In this document: positions 22,028 through 39,198 of the stretch, piece after piece | Layout: every line of letters begins with the position of its first letter | Position numbering within the stretch: position 1 is the first letter of the stretch | Translations under genes and position numbers: made by a program | Virus record (IMG/VR): IMGVR_UViG_3300014050_000006 | Location: 32,001 to 96,000 of that record | Length of the DNA stretch: 64,000 bases | Direction: 5' to 3' (one strand) | Origin: a virus | The notes under the pieces: model-generated | Seen by the model: the letters and a program-made list of their open reading frames with translations, nothing else | What the model was told of the DNA's origin: nothing | The model's database searches: none

Positions 22028-25000
22028 TGAAATAATTATCCGTATTATTATATATAGTTACAGTTGATTTGTCATAAAAAGTTGGATTATAAAATTTATC
22101 ATTTTCAGATATTTCATAATAACTATCAGACCTTAGCTTAATACCATTAAGCCAAATTAATTCGCTATTTTTGCTAAATCTAGGTAAATCAAAAGTATAC
22201 ATATTACCAGTAAATCTAATATAATCAACCAATACATTGAATCCATGAATTAATCCTGTAACAGGAATATTTCCAGTAATAAAGTCAATATTTGGTGAAT
22301 TAAAATTATACTGATATCCACTTATTAACTTTTGACCATTTAAATATAAGAAGTCTTTAGAATTTAAAATATCAGAATTTTGACCAGTATAATTTAAAAA
22401 TATTTCACCAGTTTTAATAAAATCTGCTTCTAAATTATCAGTAAATTCATAGAATGAAATTGGTGATCCTAAATTAATATTTGATATAATATAATTTTGA
22501 CCAGTAATTTGAGCTACTCCATTTAAATTAACTAAATAATTCAATCCAGTTGTATTAAATCTAAAGTCTTTTGAGGCTTTACTCATGAATAATGAATTAT
22601 TTAAACTAATATCTAAACCACTATTAATTTGGAAAAGATAAATTTCTATAATATCTTTTTCATCTAAGTATTGATTAATAAGCAAAATGTCTACGCCAAG
22701 TTCTTGCAAGAATTGAATATTCTTTGTAAGATAATAATTTTTAGTATATTGTAAATTACTATTTTTTGTTGCAATCAAAGCATTATTTTGATCAAATATA
22801 GTTTTAGATTGTAAAGTATGATAGCCAGAATCTAAATATAAAGTTTCTAATCCATCGACACTAGTTCCATTATTAGTATAACTAAATTCATAAATATAAT
22901 TTCCAGTTTTTGAAATATCATAAATTCCAGAAGAAAAGCCAGTTTGATAAGTTTGATTTGTTAAAATTAATTTTTGAGAACTAGAAGATGAAGTAACTAA
23001 ATCTATTCCAGTTAATACATTACCAGTAATAACTCCAATAATTCCAGAAACAAGATAAAGTGGAAATCCTGTTCCACAAAAATCTGGTATATCTTTATAC
23101 CAACCAGTATTATATCCAGTTACTCCAGAGAATAATACTTGATTTTCATAACCAGAGATTTGACTTATTATAGTTGTTATTGTTTCTGTTATTATAGTTG
23201 GCCTTTCTACTTCTATGTTATAAATAAAATTAACATTACCAGAAACTAAATTTTTAACTTGTTGACCAGTAATATATTCATAATATGTTCCAAATTGAGA
23301 ACTATTATATTGTTTGACTCCGCTAACTATTTTTGGATAAAATCCTGTTTGCGTACCCCAGCCAGTTAATATTTCATTTTGTAGTAAAGCATTTAAAAAG
23401 CCTCCACCTCCTCCTATTTGTTTCACTCCAGTTAAATAATTTCCACTACTTGAATAAGATCCAGTACTTCCCCAACCACTTATTGTATTATCATTAAATA
23501 ACACTAGTCCAGCAACCAAACCAGCTTCTATATCAGATACTCCAGTTAGTAAATTTAATTTATTATTATTCCAATTTCCACTCCAAATTGTAGAAGTATT
23601 ATAAGGATCAATTTGATAAAATTGATTATTTCCCCAGCCAGTAATAGTTCCATCGTTTTTTAGTGCATAAACATGAGCACTTCCTGCTGATATTTTATTT
23701 ATTCCTGTTAATTGTGCAACTACAGTTTCTTCAAAAATACCAGTAAATGTATTAGAATAATCAGTATTGTATACATAATCTAATTGAACATATTTTGGTT
23801 TAATAGTGATATCACCATAATAGCCATTTTCTACAACTCCTGACCATCCAGTTAAAGGTAAAATTCCGCTACCAGTAGAGTCATTATAATAAAGAATTAA
23901 ATCTAAAAATCCATCATAAACTGACCATTTATTTGTAATATTTACTGGATCTATTCTTATTTCATAAGAGGAATTTATATTTCTATATACGATTTGTCCT
24001 GGAACAAAAGTATTATCATATGTATATAATATATTTACTCCTGTATCTAAGCTATTTTCAATCACTACTTGATATGGAATATTTAAATCATTATTTGTTG
24101 GTACGCTTGTATTACCACTTATTTTAATAATATCAGATAAACCACTATAATCTAAAACCCAGCCAGTTGTATCGTTGTATAAGGAAAGACCAAAATTTTC
24201 AAGATCATTAGAATATTTATATGCTGGTTTAGAGTTGTATTGCCCAGTATAGTTTAAAGTTAATCCAGAAAGATAGTTCCAATCACTATATATGCCAGTA
24301 ATTTGTATTTTTAAAGGATATCCTAAAATTTTATCATTTATTCCAGCTACTTGTCCATAATTATTATATCCCCAGCTAAGAACACTTCCATCATTTTTAA
24401 GAAAAACAGAAAAATATAAACCTAAATCAATTTGAGCAATATCTGTTAATTGACCAAGTGGAGTATCATTATAATTTCCAGTAAAAAGACTAGAAAATAT
24501 GTCATTATATTCGGTTGTTCCATAAATTGCACCCAGATAATTCCAACCCCAACCAGTAACAGTTCCATCATTTTTTAATGCTAAACAACTATTATTTTTA
24601 CATGCAATATCTTTAATATCAGTTAATTGTCCAACTAATGAACCTGTCCAATCTCCAACATAAGATTGATCTCCATATAATTGACCTAAACCATTATATC
24701 CCCAACCAGTTATTGTACCATCATTTAATAAAACTATTGATGTTTTAGAAGAAGTTTGACCAACTTGAAATATTTGTGTTTTTTTAATTTTATTTTTTAA
24801 TGATAAAAATTTAGAAGTATCTAATTGAGTAGAAACTCCACTATTTCCAGTAAGATCTAAACTATAATTACTTCCAGTTATACTACCATAAATTATTCCA
24901 GTATTATCTAAAAATGTATTATCAAAATAACCAGTTACATCAACATAACTATCAAAAATATGAGTAACATTTGTTGGATAATTTTCATATCCATAAAATT

Positions 25001-25736
25001 CACTATTTTTTTGGAATGTATAATAATGATTTAAATTAAATGCAAATTGATCTATAATTTTATTTAATTGAAAGTTTGTTATGTTATCTTTTATTAAAAT
25101 AAAATCTCTTATATATCCACTATAATTTGGAAAATTAGAAAATCTACCGCTACCTAAAACTATCGAACCAGTAACATTAGGAGTCGAATTGTTGTCAATT
25201 TCAAAAGCTTCTGTATAAAAATCATCATAAGCTGCATTGTAATAATTAACGAAAATGTTATTTTCATATCCTCTAAAACAAACAATTCCTTTTGTGTCAA
25301 GATGATAAACTGGAGAAAGATATTTTAAGTTTTTATTTGAATCATAATATTCTATAATCAAATTATTATAATCATTAATACAAACATTAAAACCATAATA
25401 TTGACCATCATTTCCAGTATTTAAATTAGAAAATAAAACGCATGGACCATTTCCTGTTTTTTCGTAATTAACTATGAATGTATAAGAATTTAATTCTAAA
25501 TCTTTTAAAGATATATCAACTCTATTGGTTGTATCAAAAAATAAATATCCAGATTTTATGTTTAAATTTGTGTTTAAATTTGATCCAACATAAACACCAG
25601 TATAATTTATATACTCTGTATTATTATAAATATAATTATTACCACTAAAATTTTCACTATCGAAAAAATAATGAACTAAATAATTTTCAGATTCAACGCT
25701 TAAGTTATTTAAAAAATATTGAGTACTTTTTTTCAT
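22020..25736 (-). CDS. Tail protein with N-terminal LamG-like domain and RCC1/BLIP-II repeats
   Basis: N-terminal LamG-like region (IVLGSG...YSGYIRDFIL); repeats ALKNDGTVTGWGxNxxGQ. Confidence 0.75.
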   Translation of the reverse strand: MKKSTQYFLNNLSVESENYLVHYFFDSENFSGNNYIYNNTEYINYTGVYVGSNLNTNLNIKSGYLFFDTTNRVDISLKDLELNSYTFIVNYEKTGNGPCVLFSNLNTGNDGQYYGFNVCINDYNNLIIEYYDSNKNLKYLSPVYHLDTKGIVCFRGYENNIFVNYYNAAYDDFYTEAFEIDNNSTPNVTGSIVLGSGRFSNFPNYSGYIRDFILIKDNITNFQLNKIIDQFAFNLNHYYTFQKNSEFYGYENYPTNVTHIFDSYVDVTGYFDNTFLDNTGIIYGSITGSNYSLDLTGNSGVSTQLDTSKFLSLKNKIKKTQIFQVGQTSSKTSIVLLNDGTITGWGYNGLGQLYGDQSYVGDWTGSLVGQLTDIKDIACKNNSCLALKNDGTVTGWGWNYLGAIYGTTEYNDIFSSLFTGNYNDTPLGQLTDIAQIDLGLYFSVFLKNDGSVLSWGYNNYGQVAGINDKILGYPLKIQITGIYSDWNYLSGLTLNYTGQYNSKPAYKYSNDLENFGLSLYNDTTGWVLDYSGLSDIIKISGNTSVPTNNDLNIPYQVVIENSLDTGVNILYTYDNTFVPGQIVYRNINSSYEIRIDPVNITNKWSVYDGFLDLILYYNDSTGSGILPLTGWSGVVENGYYGDITIKPKYVQLDYVYNTDYSNTFTGIFEETVVAQLTGINKISAGSAHVYALKNDGTITGWGNNQFYQIDPYNTSTIWSGNWNNNKLNLLTGVSDIEAGLVAGLVLFNDNTISGWGSTGSYSSSGNYLTGVKQIGGGGGFLNALLQNEILTGWGTQTGFYPKIVSGVKQYNSSQFGTYYEYITGQQVKNLVSGNVNFIYNIEVERPTIITETITTIISQISGYENQVLFSGVTGYNTGWYKDIPDFCGTGFPLYLVSGIIGVITGNVLTGIDLVTSSSSSQKLILTNQTYQTGFSSGIYDISKTGNYIYEFSYTNNGTSVDGLETLYLDSGYHTLQSKTIFDQNNALIATKNSNLQYTKNYYLTKNIQFLQELGVDILLINQYLDEKDIIEIYLFQINSGLDISLNNSLFMSKASKDFRFNTTGLNYLVNLNGVAQITGQNYIISNINLGSPISFYEFTDNLEADFIKTGEIFLNYTGQNSDILNSKDFLYLNGQKLISGYQYNFNSPNIDFITGNIPVTGLIHGFNVLVDYIRFTGNMYTFDLPRFSKNSELIWLNGIKLRSDSYYEISENDKFYNPTFYDKSTVTIYNNTDNYFNA

Positions 25737-27274
25737 GTCAAATCCTTAAATGTAGAATCATTTCCAACTTTTTGTATTACATAAGAAAATGATTTATTTT
25801 GAGCATCGATTCCATATTCATCTTTTAATAATAAAGTTTTACTTAAATTTGCTAAATCTCCACTTTTTTCTACATTTTGAACAAATGCTATTTGAGGAGC
25901 CGAATTAGTATATTTACCTTGAATAGAAATATTTATAATTGAATTATTTGCATAATCTAAATTTTCTAAATAATATACTCCTTTTCCACTTAAAATTGGC
26001 GCAAAACTATTTTGTGGGAATCCAGCTTGATAATCAACATTTAAGCTTAAATCATAAAGCTGAACTCCTTGAGTTCCACCAATAACAGAAGGAGACTGTA
26101 TATAACTTTCAGAATAAGTAGAAACTTGAGTAGCGATTCCGTTGCCTTCACTACTTGATTCTAGAAAAAGTTCTTCTGAGAGAGGATTATAATCTTTTAT
26201 TATTTTAGAAATATTTTTAGATAAATCAGTCGCTGTTCCATCGGCAGATCTTATAATTGTTGATGGTCTTGATTCAGAATTAAAAACAGCATTTGTAGTT
26301 TTATTCAAAAAATCAAAATTAAAACTTAATGTATTATTGACTTTATTTCCATTTTGAGTTATTGTTAAATCGTTTGAATAAGTTGTATTTATTTCCATTA
26401 CTTTTTGTACATTATCATAACTTGCAGTATTTGATATTACTTTAAAATATGAAGGAACTGAAAAAGGATTAGTTTTTATTAAACCTTTTAAATCGTTTTC
26501 TGTTGTATTTATTCCTCCATTGGCTACAGATATTACATTTATTGTTGCTAATCCATCTATTCCAGATTGAATTTGTGCAGAATGTTTTATTATACCTTTT
26601 TTACTCAAATCTTTCTGTAATAAATTTGCTGTAAAATTTTGTTGTATATTATAGCTTCCATTAGTAATATCTGCTGTTTCAGAAGAACTATTAAATACAA
26701 TATTAGAAAAATTTCCATTTTTAGAAATTTTTGAATAATTCAATCTCCAATTTTGTACTTGACCAGTTAATAATTGAGCAAAACTCTTTGCATTATTTAC
26801 AGCGCTAGATCCATCAATACTTACTGCGGTTACATTTATGTTTCTATTTATACTTATTGTTCCATCAAGATTTTCAGTAACACTTATTTCATTTTTTACA
26901 TCAGTAAGATTATTTTGATTATCATCCATAAAACTATAGCATTCACATTCTACAGTATATGGAACATGACCAATCCAATTAGATTCATTTAAAGTAATAT
27001 TTGAAAGTGTGCAAGGTCCATTATTCAATTGAGAAAAACTATTTAAAAATGAATTGATTCCAATTACTGCTTGATTAGGAATATCTTGTTCAACTCCTTG
27101 AGGAAGATATTCGCCTTCTATTGTAAAAATCACTTTATTTGCGTACTGAGTTGGTCCATTAAATATAGGTTCTATCCTTTTTGTAGCAAAAGTTGTTATT
27201 TTCTTATTATTTAAAGATGACCCCTCTAATAATGATGAGCTTAAAGCAGAATAAGGTAAAGATAGATTGCTCAT
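25733..27274 (-). CDS. Putative distal tail protein
   Basis: Second gene after the tape measure; beta-rich and appears paralogous to 27274..28959. Confidence 0.45.
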   Translation of the reverse strand: MSNLSLPYSALSSSLLEGSSLNNKKITTFATKRIEPIFNGPTQYANKVIFTIEGEYLPQGVEQDIPNQAVIGINSFLNSFSQLNNGPCTLSNITLNESNWIGHVPYTVECECYSFMDDNQNNLTDVKNEISVTENLDGTISINRNINVTAVSIDGSSAVNNAKSFAQLLTGQVQNWRLNYSKISKNGNFSNIVFNSSSETADITNGSYNIQQNFTANLLQKDLSKKGIIKHSAQIQSGIDGLATINVISVANGGINTTENDLKGLIKTNPFSVPSYFKVISNTASYDNVQKVMEINTTYSNDLTITQNGNKVNNTLSFNFDFLNKTTNAVFNSESRPSTIIRSADGTATDLSKNISKIIKDYNPLSEELFLESSSEGNGIATQVSTYSESYIQSPSVIGGTQGVQLYDLSLNVDYQAGFPQNSFAPILSGKGVYYLENLDYANNSIINISIQGKYTNSAPQIAFVQNVEKSGDLANLSKTLLLKDEYGIDAQNKSFSYVIQKVGNDSTFKDLT

Positions 27275-28959
27275 TATATTTTTACCTCTGATGGTTGTTG
27301 GGCTTGTAAAGCTATGTTATTTCTTTCTCTATATCCACCAAAATTTAACCAAGTTGCACTACCTTGAAAAGTTCTACCTATCAAATCTGATGAAATATTT
27401 ATTGATTTAATAATCCCATCTTTATAATTATCTTTAATTAATCCTATGAATGTTTTAATGTAAGCTTTAATATCAGAACTATTTTTAAATAAAGCTTGGA
27501 CCTTTAAATTCGATTCTGTTGGTCTTGATTGACTACTTTCTTGAATTAATTCTTCTCCTGGAGTAAGACCACCAATAACAATAAATTGATTTGCTAAATG
27601 AACTGGTGATTGATTTGTCAATTCTGCAGAACCATAAATCATAGTTTGATTAGAAGTATTAAAATTTGGCCTGCTTTCATAAGTTAAACTAAAATTAACT
27701 GATCCTTCACTAATATTATATGAAACATCGCCATTTGTAATATAAGTTTTATATTTTGCTTGTGTTATATCGTTTTTCATATCAGTAAAATTTTTTGCAC
27801 TTGAAAATTTATTTTTATAATTGCTATCAAAATATTTTTTTGCATTATTTAATTTATTATTTTTATTAAAATCTATTTCTTTATCTGTAGGACTTCCTAT
27901 ACCAGTTATAGTGCCTCTAATAATTTTTCTTTTTGAATTTTCTTTTTTAAGATCTTCTATTGTAGTTATAATTTCAACCCGAACTTGATTAACATATTCT
28001 GGTTCATTAGTGATAGAAACGCTAGATTGAGCTGTACCAGATGCTTCATCTACGGTTATTTGACTATTAGAAACTAAAAATATATTTCTATATCCAATTG
28101 GTAAATTTCCATAACTTAATATATAATAATTAGTAACAAATTGTGTGCATCTTCCTAATGCTCCACTAGCTTCAGACAAAGCTTTAGGAATTAAATCTTG
28201 TATTGTATATGTATCTTTTTCTATTTTAATTTGAGTATTTTCACTTGCGATAATTGCTCCGTTATTTTGTATATTGTAATTATTAGATCTTAAAATTGCA
28301 AATCCACCACTGCTTTCTCTGAATTTATTTTTTACTTCTATATATGTATAGGTTGCAGTTTTTTCATCATAAACATTTGAAGCTGTTGTCCTTGATGCAG
28401 TTAATGAAAATATATTGATTTGACCTAATATAGCACGAGCAATATTATTTGCTGCTCCTTCAGTAAAACTATTAGCATTAGGAGCAAAAGTTAATCCAAC
28501 TGAAGTAGTTAGAGTTTCACCTTCTAAATCTTGTTCTTTAATTTGAGTTATTTTAATATCTTCTAAATCTCTTAGTTGTGATGTAGTAATTCCATATTGA
28601 GTTAGACCAGATGAACTTACTGTTTCGTATATTTCAAATGTGATTGAAAAATCTTTGCTTTGTACATCTTGATTATTTGTTTGATCAAAATCAATACTAG
28701 TTATTTTTACTCCAGTATAAGATACTAGATTTGCAAAATTAAGAGTACAGTTTTTTGCTGATTTATTATCTTCAATCGCATTAATTTGATTCCAAATTTG
28801 TGAATATCCATTTTGGTTATTTAATGACAAAAGTTTTCCTTTTACAGTAATCTCTTGTACCATTTTTAATAAAAAATTAGCTTGGTTTTTTTCTATCTTT
28901 TTAGTAGCACTAGTTATTTGTGGGTAATCTAAAGATATATTAAATACTGGATTTGCCAT
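27274..28959 (-). CDS. Putative distal tail protein
   Basis: Immediately downstream of the tape measure; beta-rich with an ITVKGKL-type motif. Confidence 0.5.
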   Translation of the reverse strand: MANPVFNISLDYPQITSATKKIEKNQANFLLKMVQEITVKGKLLSLNNQNGYSQIWNQINAIEDNKSAKNCTLNFANLVSYTGVKITSIDFDQTNNQDVQSKDFSITFEIYETVSSSGLTQYGITTSQLRDLEDIKITQIKEQDLEGETLTTSVGLTFAPNANSFTEGAANNIARAILGQINIFSLTASRTTASNVYDEKTATYTYIEVKNKFRESSGGFAILRSNNYNIQNNGAIIASENTQIKIEKDTYTIQDLIPKALSEASGALGRCTQFVTNYYILSYGNLPIGYRNIFLVSNSQITVDEASGTAQSSVSITNEPEYVNQVRVEIITTIEDLKKENSKRKIIRGTITGIGSPTDKEIDFNKNNKLNNAKKYFDSNYKNKFSSAKNFTDMKNDITQAKYKTYITNGDVSYNISEGSVNFSLTYESRPNFNTSNQTMIYGSAELTNQSPVHLANQFIVIGGLTPGEELIQESSQSRPTESNLKVQALFKNSSDIKAYIKTFIGLIKDNYKDGIIKSINISSDLIGRTFQGSATWLNFGGYRERNNIALQAQQPSEVKI

Positions 28960-28962
28960 ATT

Positions 28963-31900
28963 TTATGCTGCCATCTTTGTCCTCATTGATTGAGGGGGAG
29001 TGACAGTTCCTTTTGCCATGTTTCTAGATTTTTCCTCTACAATTTTTAATAACCCTTCTCCAAATTTCTTTACTTCTGCTTCTATCATTTTTTGAAGTTC
29101 TGCTTTATCGTTAGCTGCTGCTTGAGCAATATTAATATTAGGAGCGACTGATATATTATTGGTTGTTTCTGTTGGTTTTTCTTTATTTGCTTGAGTTGTT
29201 GTTTCTTGAGTAGGAGTTTGTTCTTTTTGTTTTTTTCTGTTTTTAATTTCTTCAATTTGTCTTTTAAAATCAGTTTCTTGTTGAGCTTGTTGTTCTTTAC
29301 TTGGACCACCAAATAAAGTTGGAGCCATATTATACATAGCATTTCCCATTGTGCTTGCTACATTTTCCCCATTTCCAACTGGAATTTGACTAATTCCATA
29401 ACCTACAGCTGCTCCGCCAGCTGCTGCAGCAGTATAAGGATTAAATAATGCTCTTCCTATCGCTGGTGCTGCTGTACCGATTCCTCTTCCAGCACCAGCA
29501 ACTACATTTTTCCCTACATTAACTGTCCCTCCAACAACTTTTGTTCCTACATTAGCTGCTCCTGCTCCAAAAGCGCCCCCAATAGCACTACTAATTAATC
29601 CACCACCCACTCCTCCACCAGCTAATAATGTATTTAACCAATCTGGTTGGGTTCCTGGGACTTGAGTTCCAGTTGCTGCTGCAAGTGCTGTATTAAAAGT
29701 TGCAGTTTTTGCATTTTCTGCTCCAGCGCTTGCTTGTCCTAATGCAGTTGTTAAAGTTTTAACTGCTTCTGTATTAGCTTTTTGTGCAGCACTTTGCTCT
29801 TGAACAAACGTTCCCATTTTAGTATAATCTGGTAAATCTTTTCCAGTATAAGCTTTTTCAAATGCAGCATTTCCAAGATCTTCAAAATTTATGTTTTTTG
29901 TAATTTCTTTGAATTTTGCAACATCTCCACCAGCTGCAGATATAGCCTCTATTTGAGCATTGTATTGTTCTTCAGCTTTATTTTGATATGCCTTTTTTCC
30001 TGATTTTATTAATTCTGGATTTGTTTGTTTTAATGTATCAAGAGATACCCCACTTTGAGTCAACATATCTATCATATTAGCCGAAGCCATATCTTGAAAA
30101 ACTTGTGCTCCTGGACCAATTTGTTTCGCACGACTATATATAGCTGTTTGTTCTGCTAATACAGCTTTTAAGCTTTTTTCATTTCTATCTTGAACACTTG
30201 ATTTTGTTACAATATTTTCTGCTCCTGCATAATTTTTTACAATTCCTCCTCCAGTTCCTGCTCCTTGTCCTGCTATAGCTTTTGCTCTTTTTACTTCTAC
30301 TTCTAATGATTTAAATAAAGCTTGAGTAAGTTCATTTGCTGCTTTTGGACTTTGCGAAATTGCACCATTTAATGCATTTATAGCGTCTGTACTTATTCCA
30401 GCACTTTCATACATCATTTTTAATACAGAAATAACATCATTTGTACTACCAGAAACATTTGATAAGTTTTCAGCAAGAGCAGCTAAATCTTGTGGAGTTT
30501 CAGATAACGGGGCTAATAGATTTCCAGCAATTCCTTCAATATCTTGTTTAGTACCTAACACATCTTGAGTTCCTTGTCCTTGCATCATGCTTTTTCCAAT
30601 TCCACCTAAACCTGGGACAGCAGATAATATTTGCCCAACTTGACCTTTAAAACCCATTTGTTTTCTTGCATCTAATTGTTTTTGATAAATATCTCTTGTT
30701 AATTCTTTTTGTGCTTGTTGTACTGCTCCTCCTCTTTGCTCTTTACTTAGTGTTGCTTGAATTTCTTTTGGTGAAGATAAATTTTTCATGATTGCATCTT
30801 GTATTTCTTTTCCAAGTGGAGTCATGCCTTCTAATATTGCTTTTTTCAAATCTTTAATTTTAGTTGGATCTGGTTCACTTTTTTCTAATTCTGCTACATA
30901 ATCATTAATTGCTGGAGTTAAAGAACTAATTACTCCTTCTAATTTACTTGATTTATCTCTCATTTGATCTAAACTTTTATCTAATTTATCTATTTCTGTT
31001 GTATATGGTTTATTTGCTGATGCAGATAATCCAGCAATACCTTGTACTGCTAACATACTTCCTGCAATAGCTCCACCATATTTTTTACCACCTACACCAT
31101 ATCCAGAAGCTACGGTACTCATTATACCTAAAGTTTGAGATAATCCTTTTGTTACTTTATTTGTTTCTGTACCAAATTGATTTACTAGTCCTTCGGCTAC
31201 AGAAAGACCAATAGACAAAGCTATCATTTTGTCTGTTAAACTTTTAGTAGCTTGTTCAAGATTTTGCGTTTCTAAAACTGGTTGTTTTCCTGCATTCTCA
31301 ACTTTTTTTCTATATGCTGGATCTTGCCAATTTGGTGCAAAATTTGGTATATGTCCTCTTGATCTATTAATTCCTTGTTTTAATCCTGCGGGTTCATCTT
31401 TTGTATTATAGACTCCAAGACCAAAAGGATTATTTCTATTAATTAAAGATGAATCAGATCCAACTCTAATTTGACTTGGATCTACTCCAGCAGCTTGTTC
31501 TCTTTGCATGGCTTCTTGCAGAGCTGAAAAATTAGGTATATAACCCAAAGATTTATTTTTTCCTTTTCTAATTAAAAATTGAAATCTTTTCTTTTCTTCA
31601 TTAGTTAATTTATCTTTTCTTCTTAAAGCATTTAATTCTGTTTCTTCATTATATGCTTTTGATTCTTTAATATATTCTGATCCTAAGACTTGCTTAACTT
31701 TATTGTTTACATATCCTAAATCTAATATTTTTTGTGCAGTACTATCTCTTTGATCTTGTTTTGCATTAACTTTTGCTTCGTATGTAGCAGCTGGCATATT
31801 ATTAAACAATTTTCTAAGTTCTGTATTTGGATTTTCAAAGTCTATTGGTGCATTTTGCGCTCTTCCTTCTGACATACTGGACGTAGCAAGATTTACAGCG

Positions 31901-34101
31901 GATTCAAATACTGCTCCAGCAATACTACCAAATGATCCTGCATTTGATAATTGTTTAATATCTGTAATAGGTTTTGGAATTGGTCCACCTTGAAATAATT
32001 TTTTAGCAAAATTATTTGTAAATCTTACTATATTATCACCTAATTGTTTAATTAAATCTATATCTGAAGGTTTTCTTACATTTGCTGCATTATAACCAGA
32101 TATTGGGAATCCAATTCTTACTTTTTTATCCCCATATTTAGCATTACCATAACCAGTTCCAGCTCTTCCAGTTTTTATTGGAAAAATCATTCCAACTTTA
32201 TTTTGATATCCTCCATCAATTTGAGTATATTTTTTTCTTTCATCTGCAAAATTAGGAATAAATCCATTTGATGCATAAGGATTAAATCCAGCAGAACGTT
32301 CAAATTGTTTTTTATAATTTTTTCCAGCTTCACTATTTTCTGGTGGAATGATTGCTGGACCACTAGCTCCAGGAAATTGAACAACAGATTCTGCTGTATT
32401 ATAATACATTCCATTAGTTTTTTTAACTGCTCCTGGAGTGTATCCACCAGCATATGCTCCCATAATTTCTTGTGCTGCTGCAACTGAAAAATTAGGAATA
32501 TATCCACCAGCTTTTGTTTTTACTCTTGGAATTGGTAATGCTGCGGCTGCTGGTGCTACTTTAGCAGATATACTTGCACCAACTGCTCTTGCTGCATTTT
32601 GAGATTGTATTATTTTTAATATTTGATTTTCTACTTGAAGTAAAGAGCTTTCTTTTGAAATAATAGCTTGAATTAAACTTGGATTTTGAGCAAGAATAGT
32701 ATTAACTCTTTCTTGGGCTGCTGCAATTTTATCAGCAGAACTAGCAACTCCAATTAAACTTTTAAGAGCTTCGGCACTAAATTTAGTTAGTCCACCAAAA
32801 ATTTTAATAAAAGCTGCGCCTACTACTGCAAGTCCTGGACCACTTATATAACTACCAATTCCAGATAAAATTCCTGTAGCAATTTGAGTTCCAATGCCTT
32901 GACTTTCTTTTGGTTTGTTAAATTCTTCTAATAGAACATTAAGTCCACCTAACCCACCTTTAATTGTTGGAGCAATTGTTATTTCACCAACTTTAGCTGC
33001 AGCTTCTTTTAAATTGACAAAAGTTTTATTTGTTAAAGCTGAAAGAGTTTGATTTAATGCTTCATTTCTTTTAATTGCTTGATCAGTTGCACTTCTTGAA
33101 ACTCCTAAAGCGCTATTATAAACATTATATTCTTTTCCTAAATCTGCTAATGCTGCTCGCAAAATATTAATTTGGAATACGCCACCAACATCTTCCGCAA
33201 TTGAAGCTTGTTGAGCTTGAGTTAGTTTTCCAAATGTTTTTGCTAAATTATCTAATACTTGCATTGCTGGCAAAACATTTCCTTGTAAATCTCTAACAGC
33301 AACACCAACCGCTTCTAGTGCATCAAGAGTATCTGCTCTTTGAATTCTAGTAAAAATAGTTTTGAATGAATTACCAATTACTGCTCCACCTCTAGCAGTT
33401 GTTTGTTGAGCAGAAGTAACAAGCGCAATTAATTGATCCAAATCAACTCCAACGTCTTGAGCAGTACTACCAACTCGACTAATAGCTTCTGCCAAGTCAC
33501 CAGTACTAACAGCAAAACTTGCGTCAACATTTGCTAATTTATTAATAATTTGAGTGGAAGTTGTTCCAGCGCGAGCAAATGTATTTACTGCTGCAGTTAA
33601 AGTTTCTACGCTTCTTGCTGCGTCTAATCCAGAAAGACGACTTAATATTAATGCATCATTTGTTCTTTTTAATGTTTCAGCTACTCCTAAACCTTGACGA
33701 GCAAATTCTGTTGCAGCTTTTGCAACTTCATCAAAACTTTGACCAGTACTTTTTGCTATGCTAAATAAGCTACTACCAAATTTTCCAAGATCTTTTGTAG
33801 ATGCATTTAAAACTACATTAATATCTGCTAAACTTTTTTCAACTTCTATAGTTGATTTTACTATTTCAGAAAACGCTTTTTGAACAGTATATATTGCTCC
33901 TGCTGATGCACCGAAGGCTAAAACACGAGCATTAGATGCTTCTAATGATTTTTGAAATTCTGATACTTTACCAGTAATTCTGCCTAAAGGCTGTGATAAA
34001 CTATCTTTTAGATTTAAATTAATCGTTTTAGCGGATATTTTACCTAATTTAGCCTCTAACGGCCTTGTATCTCCATCCACCGAAATGATAATATCACTCA
34101 T
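28963..34101 (-). CDS. Tail tape measure protein (TP901-family core) with inserted domains
   Basis: 1712 aa, Ala/Gly-rich and helical; core motifs AATEFARQG, LAEAISRVGS, GAVIGNSFKTIFTRI; follows tail tube and chaperones. Confidence 0.92.
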   Translation of the reverse strand: MSDIIISVDGDTRPLEAKLGKISAKTINLNLKDSLSQPLGRITGKVSEFQKSLEASNARVLAFGASAGAIYTVQKAFSEIVKSTIEVEKSLADINVVLNASTKDLGKFGSSLFSIAKSTGQSFDEVAKAATEFARQGLGVAETLKRTNDALILSRLSGLDAARSVETLTAAVNTFARAGTTSTQIINKLANVDASFAVSTGDLAEAISRVGSTAQDVGVDLDQLIALVTSAQQTTARGGAVIGNSFKTIFTRIQRADTLDALEAVGVAVRDLQGNVLPAMQVLDNLAKTFGKLTQAQQASIAEDVGGVFQINILRAALADLGKEYNVYNSALGVSRSATDQAIKRNEALNQTLSALTNKTFVNLKEAAAKVGEITIAPTIKGGLGGLNVLLEEFNKPKESQGIGTQIATGILSGIGSYISGPGLAVVGAAFIKIFGGLTKFSAEALKSLIGVASSADKIAAAQERVNTILAQNPSLIQAIISKESSLLQVENQILKIIQSQNAARAVGASISAKVAPAAAALPIPRVKTKAGGYIPNFSVAAAQEIMGAYAGGYTPGAVKKTNGMYYNTAESVVQFPGASGPAIIPPENSEAGKNYKKQFERSAGFNPYASNGFIPNFADERKKYTQIDGGYQNKVGMIFPIKTGRAGTGYGNAKYGDKKVRIGFPISGYNAANVRKPSDIDLIKQLGDNIVRFTNNFAKKLFQGGPIPKPITDIKQLSNAGSFGSIAGAVFESAVNLATSSMSEGRAQNAPIDFENPNTELRKLFNNMPAATYEAKVNAKQDQRDSTAQKILDLGYVNNKVKQVLGSEYIKESKAYNEETELNALRRKDKLTNEEKKRFQFLIRKGKNKSLGYIPNFSALQEAMQREQAAGVDPSQIRVGSDSSLINRNNPFGLGVYNTKDEPAGLKQGINRSRGHIPNFAPNWQDPAYRKKVENAGKQPVLETQNLEQATKSLTDKMIALSIGLSVAEGLVNQFGTETNKVTKGLSQTLGIMSTVASGYGVGGKKYGGAIAGSMLAVQGIAGLSASANKPYTTEIDKLDKSLDQMRDKSSKLEGVISSLTPAINDYVAELEKSEPDPTKIKDLKKAILEGMTPLGKEIQDAIMKNLSSPKEIQATLSKEQRGGAVQQAQKELTRDIYQKQLDARKQMGFKGQVGQILSAVPGLGGIGKSMMQGQGTQDVLGTKQDIEGIAGNLLAPLSETPQDLAALAENLSNVSGSTNDVISVLKMMYESAGISTDAINALNGAISQSPKAANELTQALFKSLEVEVKRAKAIAGQGAGTGGGIVKNYAGAENIVTKSSVQDRNEKSLKAVLAEQTAIYSRAKQIGPGAQVFQDMASANMIDMLTQSGVSLDTLKQTNPELIKSGKKAYQNKAEEQYNAQIEAISAAGGDVAKFKEITKNINFEDLGNAAFEKAYTGKDLPDYTKMGTFVQEQSAAQKANTEAVKTLTTALGQASAGAENAKTATFNTALAAATGTQVPGTQPDWLNTLLAGGGVGGGLISSAIGGAFGAGAANVGTKVVGGTVNVGKNVVAGAGRGIGTAAPAIGRALFNPYTAAAAGGAAVGYGISQIPVGNGENVASTMGNAMYNMAPTLFGGPSKEQQAQQETDFKRQIEEIKNRKKQKEQTPTQETTTQANKEKPTETTNNISVAPNINIAQAAANDKAELQKMIEAEVKKFGEGLLKIVEEKSRNMAKGTVTPPQSMRTKMAA

Positions 34102-34141: not shown

Positions 34142-35134
34142 TTATATTTTAGATAATTTCGCTAATTCTTGTATGCCTAATTTTCCACCTTGAGCTTTTG
34201 CCATATCATTCATATCATTTTTGACATCTTGTTTAAGATATTCCATATCCTCTTTATTTGCGCCCATAACAAAACTCATGCCTTTACCAGAACTATTAGG
34301 GTTTTTAGATTTAAAATTAACAAGAGCATTATACCATTCTAATAATTTATCAGGATTATTTTTTGTTGCATGATCTAATTTTCTAGCTTCTTGCATAGAT
34401 AATATATTAGAGAAATACTTGCCATAAGTAAATATGCTATTTTGATAATAAGTTAAATTATATATTGGTTTTCCAAATAAATAATAGCAATTTTCATCTG
34501 ATACATTAATTATATTTTGAAATGAACTAGATAAAGCCAAAGCTTTAATATGATTAATATGGAATTTTTCTATTACTTTATTATGCAAAACTATATATTG
34601 ATAGTATGAATTGCTATCTACATCTTCATTATAAAAATCAAATAATTTTTCTTTTAAATCTTTATCTTTATAAAATGAATTTAATATATAAAAATACTCT
34701 AATTTATTTTGAGCATACATTTCGGCGTATATTCCAAGCAAATCTTTCTTTTCATCTTCTAAAATTTTAACTTCTTTTTTTAATTCATTTATTTCTTTTT
34801 TAGCTTTATCCATGTGGGATTTCAAGAACAAATCCGCATAGCTTTTTTCTAATTTATTTAATTTTTCTTTTTTATATTTTAATTCATCATTTTGAGTTTT
34901 TGTCCAATAATCTTGATCTATTAAAAACTTTTCTTTTTCTGCTAATGTAGGTAAGCCTTTTTTCTTGGCTATTTCATATTGCTCAAAAAAATACTCTTCA
35001 AACTCGCCAGAAGTAAATTCGCCAAAATGCTTTATGTATATATATGTTTTATTATCTTTATCTAAAAGCTTAGAATTACCATTGCAAATCTCAAAGAATA
35101 AAAGTTTTAATTTTTTCTCTGTTAAATCTATCAA
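34142..35134 (-). CDS. Putative tail assembly chaperone
   Basis: Charged helical protein directly before the tape measure; similar coiled-coil layout to 35131..35892. Confidence 0.5.
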   Translation of the reverse strand: MIDLTEKKLKLLFFEICNGNSKLLDKDNKTYIYIKHFGEFTSGEFEEYFFEQYEIAKKKGLPTLAEKEKFLIDQDYWTKTQNDELKYKKEKLNKLEKSYADLFLKSHMDKAKKEINELKKEVKILEDEKKDLLGIYAEMYAQNKLEYFYILNSFYKDKDLKEKLFDFYNEDVDSNSYYQYIVLHNKVIEKFHINHIKALALSSSFQNIINVSDENCYYLFGKPIYNLTYYQNSIFTYGKYFSNILSMQEARKLDHATKNNPDKLLEWYNALVNFKSKNPNSSGKGMSFVMGANKEDMEYLKQDVKNDMNDMAKAQGGKLGIQELAKLSKI

Positions 35135-35892
35135 GATTCATTTTCCTTATTAACAAAGTCTTCTACATTCTTGAATTCTTCTTCTGTTGTAGCTTTACCA
35201 GCATACCAGAAACTAACAAAATATGCAAATTTAGTTAAAACTCTTTTTAAGAATTTATCATTGCCTTCTTCAATTTCATCATATTTAACTATTTTTTGTT
35301 CATAAGAACCTTCACCAAAAAGAGGAGAATATACTTCGCCATCTTTTCTATAACATAATTGTAGAATCCACCACATTAACATTTTGTTTTTTGCTCTGTT
35401 TTCTGCTGTTTGTTCAAAAATATTATTCTTATTATTCTCTACTTCCATTAATTCTAATCTCAAAGATTTAAGCATAGCTTCAAGATTTTCTTTTTCTTTT
35501 TTCTCTTCTTCTGAAATTTCTAGAGATTCTTCTTTTTTATTTAAAATATCAAGTTTAGCTTGAGTTTCGGCTAATGCTTCGAGTATATTTTTGATTCTTT
35601 CTAATTCATTTTCTGTAAAAATTCCACCATCCTTTTCATACTTTTTAATCATTAATGTTTTAGTTAACATTCCAGCTTTAATAGCTTCTGCTAATTTTAC
35701 GCCATAAAAAAGTTCTGCATCATCAAAAAGAACTCTATTTGGCTTTTTAATAGCAAACTCTACAGGCTTTTCTTCTTTAACTGTTTTAATTGTTTTGATT
35801 ACTTCGCCTTGATCATTTTTTGATTCTTCGATTTGTTCTTTTTCTACAACCTCTACTTCGTTGAATTTATATAAAAATTTAAGTGGTATCAT
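35131..35892 (-). CDS. Putative tail assembly chaperone
   Basis: Acidic coiled-coil protein between tail tube and tape measure. Confidence 0.5.
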   Translation of the reverse strand: MIPLKFLYKFNEVEVVEKEQIEESKNDQGEVIKTIKTVKEEKPVEFAIKKPNRVLFDDAELFYGVKLAEAIKAGMLTKTLMIKKYEKDGGIFTENELERIKNILEALAETQAKLDILNKKEESLEISEEEKKEKENLEAMLKSLRLELMEVENNKNNIFEQTAENRAKNKMLMWWILQLCYRKDGEVYSPLFGEGSYEQKIVKYDEIEEGNDKFLKRVLTKFAYFVSFWYAGKATTEEEFKNVEDFVNKENES

Positions 35893-36149
35893 ATTTGTTC
35901 TCCTGTTTTTTCATCAAAAAAAGATTTAACTTTTTTAAAATTAAGTTTACCAGCTATTGTTCTGACGAAATCTTCTTTTCTTTTGATATCCCATGTTTTA
36001 TATATGGATATAAATTTATCACTAGTTAATGTTTCTAGTTTTGGACTATAGATTTTATATTCCTGAGAAAGGGCTCTTTGTATAGATTGTAAATTTAAAT
36101 TAGCCTCAATTATACTTTGAGCTGGAAAATTGAATGATACTTTTTTCAT
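35889..36149 (-). CDS. Hypothetical protein
   Basis: 86-aa ORF with ATGA-type overlaps on both sides. Confidence 0.65.
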   Translation of the reverse strand: MKKVSFNFPAQSIIEANLNLQSIQRALSQEYKIYSPKLETLTSDKFISIYKTWDIKRKEDFVRTIAGKLNFKKVKSFFDEKTGEQI

Positions 36150-36361
36150 AAAGAAATTTTAAATTGTTCAATATCTTGCTCGATTTCTCTAATTGTATCA
36201 TTGCCATAATCTAAAATCCTTTTGCGGATTTGATTATATTTTTCTTGTGAAATAGAAGGATTTTCTCTAGCGAGATCTTCTAGAATTATAAAATAATTTT
36301 TAAATAAAGAAGTAATTTTTCTTCTAACTTGAAATGATAGATAGTCTTTTTCCTTTGACAT
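36146..36361 (-). CDS. Hypothetical protein (start revised to ATG at 36361)
   Basis: The track's TTG start overlaps the promoter; the ATG at 36361 follows an AGG-N4-AGG leader. Confidence 0.65.
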   Translation of the reverse strand: MSKEKDYLSFQVRRKITSLFKNYFIILEDLARENPSISQEKYNQIRKRILDYGNDTIREIEQDIEQFKISL

Positions 36362-36382
36362 AACACCTTTAACCTTTAAATT

Positions 36383-36411
36383 ATTATACAACAAACCAGA
36401 CGGAAAGTCTA
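36383..36411 (-). promoter_or_regulatory. Sigma70-like promoter TAGACT-N17-TATAAT
   Basis: Near-consensus hexamers with 17-nt spacer in the intergenic gap. Confidence 0.65.
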
Positions 36412-36438
36412 GTTTATTGTAATAATAATTAGAAACCT

Positions 36439-37254
36439 TTAAGCAGGAATACTAATACTAGCAGCAGATTTGACAGGAGCTTCTAGCGTGATAGATGCTA
36501 CTTGAATGTCGTCTAAGCTTGTATTAGATGTGAAGTTTGCAATCTTTGCATCAGCAACAGTGTAAGTTAAACTTCCGCAAGCAATACTAACTGCATTTTT
36601 AGTATTATTTGCAAATTTTGGATTTGCGCTATCTCTCAAAATGATTTCTGCTTCTACTGTTACTTTAGGTGGTCCAGAAATAATATTTGCAATTGGAGTT
36701 AATGATCCTAGTTTGTTGACATATTCGCGTGGAATATCAAGAGTATATGTGAATGATCTACATTCATAAGCTGTTCCACCAAGAGTTACTGTAATTTCAT
36801 CTGGACGAATAACATTAATGTCATTAGCGCTACCTGCTGGATAAGTTGGATTACCAGCTGTATAAGTAGCGTCAAGAGCTTGAACGCTAACTGTTACAGT
36901 TGGTACGTTACCTACTGAACCTTCAACTGCATAAGAACTAATTAATCCACTTGGAATTGTAAGTGCGCCTGCGCCACTCAATATATATTGTTTACCAGCT
37001 ACATCAGCTAGTAAAGTGTCAAAATTATTTAAACCTAAAGTTGTATGATTATTAATTCCAGTAGCAAGAATATAAGAGAAATTTAATGTTGCAGTTGGTG
37101 GTTCTACTTGGATATTATCAATTGCATAAAGATTACCGAATTCGAAAATATCTTGACGACTAATGCTAAAATCAACGTCTGCGCTTTGGACTAGATTAAT
37201 TTCTGTTCCACCTGCGGTTAGTTTTTGTGCTGGATAGTATGTTACATTTCCCAT
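36439..37254 (-). CDS. Tail tube (major tail) protein
   Basis: 271 aa, beta-rich with an internal duplication; strong AGGAG RBS; high-expression codon usage; lies between neck and chaperone genes. Confidence 0.7.
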   Translation of the reverse strand: MGNVTYYPAQKLTAGGTEINLVQSADVDFSISRQDIFEFGNLYAIDNIQVEPPTATLNFSYILATGINNHTTLGLNNFDTLLADVAGKQYILSGAGALTIPSGLISSYAVEGSVGNVPTVTVSVQALDATYTAGNPTYPAGSANDINVIRPDEITVTLGGTAYECRSFTYTLDIPREYVNKLGSLTPIANIISGPPKVTVEAEIILRDSANPKFANNTKNAVSIACGSLTYTVADAKIANFTSNTSLDDIQVASITLEAPVKSAASISIPA

Positions 37255-37313
37255 ATATTTTTTCTCCTATAAATTCATCTAAAATTACATTAAATTATCT
37301 CACTTGAGAACTT

Positions 37314-38165
37314 TTAATTCAAATTTCCTCTAACTTTCCTTAGAGTAAAATCAATAAAAGCGGGGTATAGCACGTTTTTATAATTAACGCTATTAAATCC
37401 TACATTTGGGACTTTGCTTACCCTAACTTCTTCAATATAAAGCTTATCGGTGCTATTTATCTTATTACTTACTATATTATTATAGTTATAATAGCCACTT
37501 GTAAAATTGCCTAAATTGTCTAGCCCTAAATCACTAGATTCTACTGTATATATAAAATTATTGCTAGTATCTCTTAATATGGAGCAAACAGCATCTAAAT
37601 TATATAAATTATCAGCTAAAACAATAACTCTTATATTTAACATTGAGTTTTTAACTCCACCAAAAGCAAAAGGCTCATTCATGCCACCATTATTTTTAAT
37701 AAAAATTGAGGGTATAGTTTCAACATTATCAGCTAAACCAGTTAAACTTTGGGCTATTTTTGGCCTTATTTTATATTGAGTTTCAAATAATATCTCTTCT
37801 TCTGGCTTATTGGTCAAATATATATTAAAATCTTTAACAGCATATCTACCACTTAAATTGCCACCAGCAGAACCACTAAAATAAACTTGACCTCTATAAT
37901 GATTAATTCCTACTAAATTACTAGTATTAACAGGAGTAAATGTATTATTAACATAAACTCCAGACATAATATTAGCACCACTAATTGAACTATCAGCGAT
38001 TATTTGTCTAAATGGCAAAGCATAGGTATTATAAGAATAATAAGTACTTTCGATAGGATATACTTGACCACTATAATTAGTAAAAGCTTCTCCCTTAGAA
38101 CACAATTTATTGTCAATAAATAGCATCATGCTAGAAGTAACTAAATTATCAAATTGGATTTTCAC
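37314..38165 (-). CDS. Putative tail terminator/completion protein
   Basis: Directly before the tail tube; PSIFI...IRVIVLAD...LDAVCSILRD pattern. Confidence 0.55.
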   Translation of the reverse strand: MKIQFDNLVTSSMMLFIDNKLCSKGEAFTNYSGQVYPIESTYYSYNTYALPFRQIIADSSISGANIMSGVYVNNTFTPVNTSNLVGINHYRGQVYFSGSAGGNLSGRYAVKDFNIYLTNKPEEEILFETQYKIRPKIAQSLTGLADNVETIPSIFIKNNGGMNEPFAFGGVKNSMLNIRVIVLADNLYNLDAVCSILRDTSNNFIYTVESSDLGLDNLGNFTSGYYNYNNIVSNKINSTDKLYIEEVRVSKVPNVGFNSVNYKNVLYPAFIDFTLRKVRGNLN

Positions 38166-38752: not shown

Positions 38753-38753
38753 A

Positions 38754-39197: not shown

Positions 39198-39198
39198 A

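What the first reader, a model, noticed from the sequence alone, without database searches (positions are those of the whole stretch)
31336..32508. Tape measure protein contains cargo domains delimited by four GxIPNF motifs
Seen: G(Y/F/H)IPNF(S/A) occurs four times (about 32488-32508, 32245-32265, 31525-31545 and 31336-31356). The motifs bracket three non-helical inserts of roughly 80, 240 and 60 aa in an otherwise helical tape measure. Established: tape measure proteins are ejected into the host and are often proteolytically processed. Inference: GxIPNF is a processing or recombination boundary that makes the protein a polyprotein delivering interchangeable effectors at infection.
Basis: partly seen in the sequence, partly recalled or inferred. 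Interest (0 to 1): 0.75.

Follow-up and report, generated by a model that had tools for sequence, protein, structure and literature searches.

The report
Tape measure protein with motif-fenced swappable modules
The tail-length "ruler" protein of this uncultured freshwater phage carries three separately folding inserts, each fenced by one nearly invariant short peptide at which related phages swap inserts; the tail may therefore carry changeable ready-made proteins into the host, but cutting and delivery are untested.

Summary
G[YFH]IPNF[SA] occurs four times in the 1712-aa tape measure protein (TMP, 28963-34101, minus strand), at aa 533, 613, 853 and 916. It occurs nowhere else in the 112.8-kb phage record; chance expectation is about 8e-6 per protein.

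AlphaFold places all four motifs in low-confidence linkers between three folded alpha/beta modules: C (73 aa), B (233 aa; pLDDT 91, no known fold) and A (56 aa).

The architecture is shared by hundreds of uncultured-phage TMPs (288 IMG/VR loci). Of 219 non-redundant TMPs, 82% have four motifs and some have up to nine. Extra cassettes in relatives include GNAT acetyltransferases and a 111-aa ParB-like unit.

The recombination-boundary reading is supported. Against close relatives, nucleotide identity falls from about 95% to about 50% at the last codon of motif 2, recovers at motif 3, and falls again after motif 4. Elsewhere, module B is 100% identical between TMPs whose N-termini are 48% identical.

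All synonymous codons are used in the motif, so selection acts on the peptide. What reads the peptide is unknown. My best guess is a proteolytic site, because it resembles the mapped T5 pb2 site ...SFVPR|A. A SurA-type chaperone docking site (WEYIPNV-like) is the main rival.

Earlier notes of this scan describe the same architecture in at least 12 other genomes. I found no published description.

The parts
28963..34101 (-). Tape measure protein gene, 1712 aa (P0001)
   Evidence: Single ORF. TIGR01760 at aa 72-399, 132.7 bits. PF10145 at aa 116-307. PHROG TMP families.
32905..33888 (-). TP901-type TMP core region (aa 72-399)
   Evidence: This is the only part shared with cultured Bacillus and Lactococcus phage TMPs, at about 28% identity.
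32485..32505 (-). Motif 1, GYIPNFS (aa 533-539)
   Evidence: Sits in a pLDDT<50 linker.
32266..32484 (-). Module C (aa 540-612), small alpha/beta domain that forms the N-terminal cap of the array
   Evidence: AF2 pLDDT 67-81. Module family present in most relatives.
32245..32265 (-). Motif 2, GFIPNFA (aa 613-619); recombination breakpoint
   Evidence: Identity to L004 collapses right after its GCA codon.
31546..32244 (-). Module B (aa 620-852): confidently folded domain of unknown fold with invariant G729, F732, E733, D754, K777, K791 and E/D775
   Evidence: AF2 on the module alone gives pLDDT 90.9 and pTM 0.84. No fold match. Found almost only inside long TMPs. Alleles are exchanged between lineages.
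31525..31545 (-). Motif 3, GYIPNFS (aa 853-859); recombination breakpoint
31357..31524 (-). Module A (aa 860-915): most conserved small module and C-terminal cap, with nearly invariant RE, IRVG, NPxGLGVYNTxDEPxGL
31336..31356 (-). Motif 4, GHIPNFA (aa 916-922); recombination breakpoint
28963..31335 (-). C-terminal helical and Gly-rich part of the TMP (aa 923-1712)
   Evidence: The family profile matches coiled-coil chains, including SPP1 TMP gp18 (9occ_M, E 6e-6), over profile positions 959-1562. Helices start right after motif 4 in the model.
34142..36149 (-). Three overlapping genes (330, 253 and 86 aa) between the tube gene and the TMP gene, in the position of tail assembly chaperones
   Evidence: ORFs. 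Conserved in 74, 71 and 43 of 80 related loci. No family match. The chaperone role is inferred from position only.
36439..37254 (-). Tail tube protein
   Evidence: PF18906 Phage_tube_2, 30.6 bits against a cut-off of 27.

Best explanation
The middle of this TMP is a 'beads on a string' array. Three independently folding modules (C, B, A) interrupt the helical ruler. Each module boundary, including the two outer ones, is a flexible linker carrying the same peptide, (A/K)(S/A)xG(F/Y)(I/V)PNF(A/S).

Shown: the DNA that encodes this peptide is the crossover point at which phages of this large uncultured family exchange, insert and delete whole modules. Shown: the peptide itself is kept by selection on the protein, not on the DNA.

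Inferred: because the peptide is independent of whichever module sits next to it and lies in disordered linkers, it is read by one common factor. I take this most likely to be an endopeptidase, of phage or host origin, that cuts at or beside PNF|A/S during tail maturation or after ejection. That cut would free the modules from the ruler, as T5 pb2 is cut at ...SFVPR|A between its rod and its enzyme domain.

Inferred: the modules travel in the tail lumen with the TMP and act in the next host. Module B, with its invariant E...D...(D/E)xK...K set, is probably an enzyme. C and A are constant end caps of the array rather than cargo.
For: Motifs and chance expectation.

Folded modules with all four motifs in pLDDT<50 linkers.

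Conservation: the same four-motif layout appears in over 110 homologues. There are 288 IMG/VR loci. Of 219 non-redundant TMPs, 180 have 4 motifs and 20 have 5-9. Module B lies almost only inside long TMPs.

Peptide-level selection: the four copies differ at synonymous sites. Every Gly, Pro, Asn and Phe codon is used across phages of 28-45% GC.

Breakpoints at the motif: in the window against L004, identity breaks within a codon of motifs 2, 3 and 4. The 111-aa cassette is 90% nt identical between L081 and L083, whose flanks are 52-60% identical, and the similarity starts and stops at the motif DNA. The same cassette sits in different slots.

Allele exchange: module B is 100% identical in TMPs with 48% identical N-termini. 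Of 650 pairs with at least 85% identical N-termini, 385 have B below 60% identical.

Enzyme cargo in relatives: GNAT hits lie inside motif-bounded modules of P0132, P0134 and P0133.

Cleavage precedent: T5 pb2 is cut after R1127 between rod and enzyme domain, and both parts stay in the tail (PMC10038345). The site reads NSFVPR|AEGG on NC_005859. The small residue after PNF (A 67%, S 19%) suits a P1' position.

Delivery precedent: a TMP-fused enzyme that acts in the host is known from P23-45 gp96 (PMC10770324).
Against: No cleavage product, protease or virion proteome is available. No S78, S77, ClpP or Prp family protease was detected in the record, which is only 74% complete. The motif is absent from capsid, portal and every other protein, so the head maturation protease is an unlikely agent. 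The likeness to the T5 site is only F-V-P plus a following Ala, with one residue more between them. In this window no module has a recognisable effector family. B has no known fold. C-B-A is conserved in 82% of relatives, which fits a built-in role in envelope penetration as well as it fits cargo. A strictly invariant G, P and N is stricter than many protease sites.
Confidence: 0.4

Rival explanations
1. The peptide is a docking site for a host periplasmic PPIase-chaperone (SurA-type, or FkpA/PpiD). It mimics the client motif of outer-membrane proteins. The ejected, unfolded TMP would then be held and handed on module by module rather than cut.
For: The phage-display peptide WEYIPNV binds the SurA P1 domain with Kd 1-14 uM (PDB 2PV1; PMC7195389 and PMC11401910). 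It shares Y-I-P-N plus a hydrophobic residue with GYIPNF. The invariant Pro preceded by I/V is a plausible PPIase substrate. HK97 genome injection depends on the chaperone FkpA (as cited in PMC5099701); from my own recollection of the primary study (Cumby et al. 2015), not read here, the TMP determines that dependence. The motif sits in disordered linkers at every module boundary.
Against: The published SurA consensus is Ar-X-Ar-X-Pro. The first aromatic is missing here, since the position before G is S, K, G or A. At site 4 of this lineage the aromatic is often H, R, N, K or T. The host is unknown, so a diderm envelope is not established. Invariant G and N are not explained by the known SurA preference.
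Confidence: 0.2
2. The peptide is a structural element of the assembled tail. It could be a short staple that keeps the three TMP chains in register between modules. It could also be the contact for a conserved phage partner, such as the chaperone-position proteins or the tube lumen.
For: TMPs are trimers in the tube (PMC10038345). The array interrupts the coiled coil, so register-keeping contacts at each boundary make sense. The eight genes upstream of the TMP, including the three in chaperone position, are conserved in 43-74 of 80 loci, so a conserved partner exists. The motif does not depend on its neighbouring modules.
Against: AF2 gives no structure to the motif in the monomer. No co-variation or complex prediction is available. 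Chaperones are generally thought to coat the helical parts of TMPs.
Confidence: 0.15
3. The modules of this window are not cargo effectors. They are the TMP's own working parts for crossing the envelope (cell-wall hydrolysis, pore formation or channel anchoring). The motif only separates functional units.
For: C-B-A is the conserved core in 82% of relatives. Embedded wall-degrading domains are the classical TMP inserts (T5 pb2 metallopeptidase, PMC10038345; several phages, PMC12617516). B has an invariant E/D pair that would also suit a glycosidase.
Against: B has no lysozyme, transglycosylase or peptidase match by sequence or fold. Accessory cassettes in relatives include GNAT, which needs cytoplasmic acetyl-CoA. 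B alleles are exchanged at a rate typical of conflict genes.
Confidence: 0.3
4. The motif has no role as a peptide. It is only a stretch of DNA microhomology that persists because recombination keeps copying it.
For: Breakpoints fall on it. In AT-rich genomes the 21 nt are nearly identical between copies.
Against: All synonymous codons are used while the peptide stays fixed over 28-45% GC and TMP identities below 25%. G, P and N are invariant alignment columns in sequences selected by homology and not by the motif.
Confidence: 0.05

Closest known systems
Phage T5 tape measure protein pb2 (cleaved into pb2* and pb2C)
   Same: A TMP in which a linker separates the helical ruler from an enzyme domain and is cut during tail morphogenesis, with both parts staying in the tail (PMC10038345). 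The site reads SFVPR|A, which shares F-V-P and a following Ala with GFVPNFA.
   Different: T5 has one site and one C-terminal domain. It has no repeated motif, no array and no evidence of cassette exchange. There is no sequence homology to modules C, B or A. The protease is unknown in both cases (PMC12617516).
Polyvalent proteins of phages and conjugative elements (Iyer et al. 2017, PMC5512222)
   Same: Large virion-borne proteins that string together many shuffled enzymatic domains (GNAT, ParB and nucleases among them), thought to be delivered with the DNA and sometimes processed.
   Different: That paper does not mention tape measure proteins (0 occurrences). Polyvalent proteins are head-associated, typically carry MuF or a metallopeptidase, and have no uniform boundary peptide.
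Thermus phage P23-45 gp96, a TMP fused to a virion RNA polymerase (PMC10770324)
   Same: It shows that an enzyme fused to a TMP can be carried in the tail and act in the host cytoplasm.
   Different: It is a single N-terminal fusion, with no motif-fenced array and no module exchange.
Boundary motifs of polymorphic toxins (VENN in CdiA, PxxxxDPxGL in Rhs); cited from my own knowledge, not tested here
   Same: Works alike: a short conserved peptide marks the junction between a constant delivery part and variable payloads. It serves as the recombination point and, in Rhs, also as a self-cleavage site.
   Different: The motif and the proteins are unrelated. Those systems have one junction per protein with the payload at the C-terminus. 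They are bacterial secretion systems and not phage tails.
TMP-related modular effectors of actinobacterial contractile injection systems (Sle1; PMC13277306)
   Same: A TMP-derived carrier with an exchangeable functional module packaged inside a tail-like tube.
   Different: It carries a single C-terminal module with no repeated boundary peptide, and it belongs to a bacterial nanomachine rather than a phage.

Membership tests
TP901-family phage tail tape measure protein | N-terminal core region matching TIGR01760 / PF10145 above the curated cut-off | tested here: met
   TIGR01760 132.7 bits against 28.8. PF10145 100.3 bits against 33.2.
TP901-family phage tail tape measure protein | Gene position between the tube/chaperone genes and the distal tail genes | tested here: met
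   The tube gene (PF18906) is at 36439-37254. Three small overlapping genes follow, then the TMP, then large tail proteins.
TP901-family phage tail tape measure protein | Long helical or coiled-coil stretches outside any inserts | tested here: met
   The family profile matches coiled-coil chains, including SPP1 TMP gp18, over positions 959-1562. Helices flank motif 4. The N-terminal 520 aa were not folded here.
PD-(D/E)XK nuclease superfamily (module B) | Conserved E ... D ... (D/E)xK signature on helix, strand and strand | tested here: met
   E733 lies in a helix, D754 at a strand, E775-x-K777 in a strand and K791 in the next helix. All are invariant, with E/D at 775, in 42 diverse sequences.
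PD-(D/E)XK nuclease superfamily (module B) | Restriction-endonuclease-like alpha-beta-beta-beta-alpha-beta core fold | tested here: inconclusive
   The model is confident (pLDDT 90.9). However, the best VIA Z is 3.4, and Cfr10I reaches only Z 2.5 with rmsd 5.7 over 105 residues. Foldseek finds nothing below E 0.08. A four-strand sheet precedes the helices, which is not the canonical order.
PD-(D/E)XK nuclease superfamily (module B) | Sequence match to a curated nuclease family | tested here: inconclusive
   No Pfam, PHROG or NCBIfam hit in aa 520-940. No PDB sequence hit.
Polyvalent proteins (Iyer et al. 2017) | Several recognisable effector enzyme domains in one virion protein | tested here: not met
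   No known enzyme family is found in this window's TMP. GNAT is found only in distant relatives. ParB-likeness of the 111-aa cassette is weak (E 0.55-1.1; no Pfam hit).
Polyvalent proteins (Iyer et al. 2017) | Mosaic shuffling of domains between related elements | tested here: met
Proteolytically processed TMPs (T5 pb2, lambda gpH) | Demonstrated cleavage of the TMP in virions | not testable with these tools
   No proteomic data are available and there is no cultured member.
Proteolytically processed TMPs (T5 pb2, lambda gpH) | Sequence likeness to the one mapped site (T5 R1127|A) | tested here: inconclusive
   SFVPR|A against GFVPNF|A shares F-V-P and the Ala, with one extra residue.
SurA client motif | Ar-X-Ar-X-Pro consensus | tested here: not met
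   The second aromatic, X and Pro are present, but the first aromatic position is S, K, G or A. The consensus is taken from PMC11401910.
SurA client motif | Likeness to the P1-binding peptide WEYIPNV | tested here: met
   YIPN plus a hydrophobic residue is identical in motifs 1 and 3. Binding itself was not tested.

The most novel reading that the evidence does not exclude
The boundary peptide mimics an outer-membrane-protein client motif (the YIPN core of the SurA P1 ligand WEYIPNV). Each module boundary of the ejected tape measure protein would then recruit the host's periplasmic chaperone. The phage would be borrowing the host's protein-handling line to keep a changeable set of tail-borne enzymes unfolded and to pass them across the envelope.
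Probability: 0.12. Interest if true: 0.85.

Novelty: new variant of a known kind. Interest (0 to 1): 0.68.

Why it matters
TMPs are usually treated as passive rulers that also open the way for DNA. Single enzyme fusions to TMPs are known (T5 pb2, P23-45 gp96).

Here, hundreds of uncultured phages share a rule-based system. A fixed ten-residue peptide fences every module, and modules are exchanged, added or dropped exactly at that peptide. This would make the tail lumen a programmable carrier for proteins that reach the host before any phage gene is expressed. Such a carrier would be a natural place for counter-defence enzymes.

The system also offers a handle on an old open question. According to PMC12617516, only the T5 and lambda TMPs are known to be cut, and it is unknown how cleavage is catalysed. 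A conserved, repeated candidate site makes that question testable.

For engineering, the motif suggests where foreign modules could be placed in a TMP.

Module B is a confidently predicted domain without a known fold and with a catalytic-looking invariant set.

Tried and rejected
- **Cultured phages:** tblastn of aa 501-967 (window 31201-32601) against 50,697 phage records gave no match. The full TMP matches only through its N-terminal core.
- **Prophages:** one scan of 185,579 species genomes found none.
- **PDB by sequence:** nothing for the inserts, either as a single sequence or as a profile.
- **Fold searches:** the three-module model gave best Foldseek E 0.13 and best VIA Z 3.3. Module B alone gave VIA Z 3.4 and Foldseek E 0.08 against PDB and 0.17 against BFVD. 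No family can be named from these results.
- **ESM Atlas:** nothing above chance for B or C.
- **C and A as homologues:** hhalign gives 97% only because of the shared motifs. With the motifs removed the probability is 0.3%. Rejected.
- **Protease in the phage:** PF04586, PF00574, PF03420 and PF04327 are all absent from the 112.8-kb record, which is 74% complete.
- **Host L27/Prp-type site:** the record is a virus only, with no L27. The NLQFF|A site does not resemble the motif.
- **N-glycosylation sequon (N-x-S/T):** rejected, because position +2 after Asn is Ala in 67% of cases.
- **Sortase-like LPXTG, the T4 foldon GYIP and a slippery frameshift site:** considered from the sequence and my own knowledge and set aside. 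The context does not fit, and TAATTTT is not of the X XXY YYZ form.
- **Natural split of the gene at a motif:** the one case (L053) is a frameshift in a poly-A run 30 aa after motif 4, most likely an assembly error.
- **Literature:** no paper holds IPNF together with 'tape measure', or any motif string in a phage context. None links 'tape measure protein' with 'polyprotein' in this sense.
Full report
**What is there**

The window is part of a 112,811-bp IMG/VR virus record, with about 28% G+C and nearly all genes on the minus strand. The ORF 28963-34101 encodes a 1712-aa protein, P0001.

It is a tape measure protein (TMP):
- TIGR01760 matches aa 72-399 at 132.7 bits against a cut-off of 28.8.
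- PF10145 matches aa 116-307.
- Several PHROG TMP families match.
- A tail tube gene (PF18906) lies upstream, followed by three small overlapping genes in the chaperone position.

G[YFH]IPNF[SA] occurs at aa 533, 613, 853 and 916. The window coordinates are 32485-32505, 32245-32265, 31525-31545 and 31336-31356.

The motif occurs nowhere else in six frames of the window or of the whole phage record. From the protein's composition, 8e-6 such motifs are expected.

**Anatomy**

I folded aa 520-960 with a 46-sequence alignment (mean pLDDT 73). The model shows three folded alpha/beta domains:
- Module C, aa 540-612.
- Module B, aa 620-852.
- Module A, aa 860-915.

All four motifs fall in stretches with pLDDT below 50.

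Module B folded alone is very confident (pLDDT 90.9, pTM 0.84), but it matches no solved or predicted viral structure:
- VIA-align against 48,161 chains gives a best Z of 3.4.
- Foldseek gives a best E of 0.08 against PDB and 0.17 against BFVD.

Across 42 diverse relatives, B keeps G729, F732, E733, D754, K777 and K791 invariant, with E or D at 775. On the model these lie helix / strand / strand / helix.

The fold test is inconclusive. Cfr10I reaches only Z 2.5, and the strand order is not canonical. I therefore call B a probable enzyme of unknown fold, not a nuclease.

C and A looked alike by eye. Once the shared motifs are removed, hhalign gives a probability of 0.3%.

**Distribution**

The region has 575 relatives at E <= 0.001 among the candidates scored in the 90%-clustered protein collection and 288 loci in IMG/VR. 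An exhaustive HMMER search with module B found it almost only inside very long TMP-like proteins.

No cultured phage carries the array. One scan of 185,579 species genomes found no prophage with it.

Among 219 non-redundant TMPs of at least 1400 aa:
- 180 have exactly four motifs.
- 15 have three.
- 20 have five to nine.

Modules range from 11 to 374 aa.

Over 581 distinct motif instances the logo is (A/K)(S/A)xG(F/Y)(I/V)PNF(A/S). That set was collected with a pattern that fixes G, P and N. Independent alignments of homologues also show G, P and N as invariant columns.

Site 4 tolerates some variation in certain lineages: GFIPSF, HG[IV]PN[FY]A, GFTPNF and SFVPNF. The core is therefore [IV]PN[FY][AS].

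**Is the motif a recombination boundary? Yes**

*In the window's own lineage.* I compared the window with close relatives L004 and L005. Nucleotide identity along the gene behaves as follows:
- It is 87-98% up to and including motif 2.
- It collapses to 45-65% immediately after the Ala codon of motif 2 and stays low through module B.
- It returns to 80-90% from four codons before motif 3 and stays there through module A.
- It collapses again right after motif 4.
- It recovers about 40 codons later.

*Across the family.* Of 650 TMP pairs whose N-terminal 300 aa are at least 85% identical, 385 have B below 60% identical. Conversely, P0015 and P0016 share a 100% identical B with P0041 while their N-termini are 48% identical.

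*Accessory cassettes.*
- A 111-aa unit with a DGNHR box sits between C and B in P0003, a close relative of the window TMP, and in the distant P0094.
- The same unit sits between B and A in L076, L080, L081 and L082, and in an H-B-G-F array in L083.
- Between L081 and L083 the cassette is 88% aa and 90% nt identical. Every flanking part is 23-53% aa and 52-67% nt identical. The nucleotide similarity begins and ends at the motif DNA.
- A 161-aa cassette likewise occupies different slots in L074 and P0037.
- P0112 has an 'empty slot' of 11 aa between two motifs.

**Is the motif only DNA homology? No**

The four copies in this gene differ at synonymous positions. Over phages of 28-45% G+C, all four Gly codons, all four Pro codons and both Asn and Phe codons are used, while the peptide stays fixed. 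Selection therefore acts on the peptide, and its DNA doubles as microhomology for exchange.

**Are the inserts interchangeable effectors? Only partly**

Clustering of the modules shows C-B-A as the core architecture. C-type and A-type modules act as near-constant first and last units, even in arrays of eight modules.

In this window only B is 'interchangeable', and only for other alleles of B. The variable cassettes are found in relatives:
- GNAT acetyltransferase hits lie inside motif-bounded modules of P0132 (28.9 bits against a cut-off of 20.7). The hits in P0134 and P0133 are weaker.
- The 111-aa cassette gives only weak ParB matches (E 0.55-1.1) and a weak peptidoglycan-binding-like match (E 0.024). 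It has no Pfam hit.
- About thirty further module families have no annotation.

GNAT and ParB are typical of the 'polyvalent proteins' that phages are thought to inject (PMC5512222). That paper never mentions TMPs.

P23-45 gp96 shows that a TMP-fused enzyme can act in the host (PMC10770324).

**What reads the peptide?**

This step is inferred, not shown. The peptide does not depend on its neighbouring modules, it lies in flexible linkers, and it marks every boundary including the outer two. It should therefore be read by one common factor.

*Cleavage (about 0.4).*
- TMP cleavage is established only for T5 and lambda, and its catalyst is unknown (PMC12617516).
- In T5 the cut after R1127 separates the ruler from an enzyme domain, and both parts stay in the tail (PMC10038345).
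- Following a lead from earlier notes of this scan, I read the T5 site on NC_005859. It is NSFVPR|AEGG, which shares F-V-P and the following Ala with GFVPNFA. This is a modest likeness.
- The small residue after PNF suits a P1' position.
- Against cleavage: no S78, S77, ClpP or Prp protease is detectable in the 74%-complete record, and the motif is absent from the head proteins.

*Chaperone docking (about 0.2).*
- The SurA P1 ligand WEYIPNV (Kd 1-14 uM, PDB 2PV1) shares YIPN plus a hydrophobic residue with the motif.
- HK97 injection depends on the periplasmic chaperone FkpA (cited in PMC5099701). From my own recollection of the primary study, not read here, the TMP determines that dependence.
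- The first aromatic of the Ar-X-Ar-X-Pro consensus is missing here, and the host is unknown.

**Comparison and novelty**

The idea works like the boundary motifs of polymorphic toxins (VENN, DPxGL), which I cite from my own knowledge. It also works like polyvalent proteins and like T5 pb2 processing. It is a member of none of these.

What is new is a uniform, repeated boundary peptide inside a TMP, together with demonstrable cassette exchange at that peptide. Full-text searches found no description.

Earlier notes of this scan describe the same architecture in at least 12 other genomes, with similar conclusions. I rate this a new variant of a known kind.

**Limits**

The N-terminal 520 aa and the C-terminal 770 aa were not folded.

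Noticed in passing
window 31381-31398 (aa 902-907): Module A carries a nearly invariant D-E-P-x-G-L; the F-type variant has D-H-P-E-G-I. It recalls the DPxGL boundary and self-cleavage motif of Rhs toxins, as I remember it. The spacing differs by one residue, and no test was made.
   Followed up: no
window 29362-29622 (about aa 1494-1580): A glycine- and alanine-rich hydrophobic stretch near the TMP C-terminus, with runs such as GGGVGGG and AGAGRGIG. It looks like the membrane-inserting, glycine-zipper-like segments described for TMPs.
   Followed up: no
window 32266-32286 (aa 606-612) and about 29430-29444 (aa 1553-1557): A conserved pre-linker, GF(N/D)PYA, precedes motif 2 across the family; P0112 has HGFDPYMA before two motifs. 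FNPY recurs once in the C-terminal part of this TMP.
   Followed up: partly
window 34142-39723 versus 16866-28959: The eight genes upstream of the TMP (neck, tube and chaperone-position genes) are conserved in 43-74 of 80 related loci. The distal tail genes downstream are found in only 6-9 of them. The constant tail shaft module therefore ends at the TMP.
   Followed up: partly
L053:11380-11440: In one relative the TMP reading frame breaks in a run of eleven A about 30 aa after motif 4 and continues in another frame. This is probably an assembly error, possibly slippage.
   Followed up: partly
P0112 aa 865-889: Two boundary motifs are separated by only 11 residues. This is an 'empty slot', as expected after deletion of a cassette by recombination between its flanking motifs.
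   Followed up: no
L076:8780-9112: The first half of the mobile 111-aa cassette weakly resembles the peptidoglycan-binding domain of an L,D-transpeptidase (8da2_A, E 0.024). Its second half weakly resembles the ParB N-terminal domain (E 0.55-1.1).
   Followed up: partly
window 61935-62882: A 315-aa protein with an ERCC4 nuclease domain (PF02732, 40.3 bits) is encoded immediately upstream of the large terminase gene (60091-61938), overlapping its start by 4 nt.
   Followed up: no
window 44122-48639 and 55966-58155: Two large proteins carry the short BppL_N lower-baseplate N-terminal domain (PF18338). One of them lies in the head-gene region.
   Followed up: no
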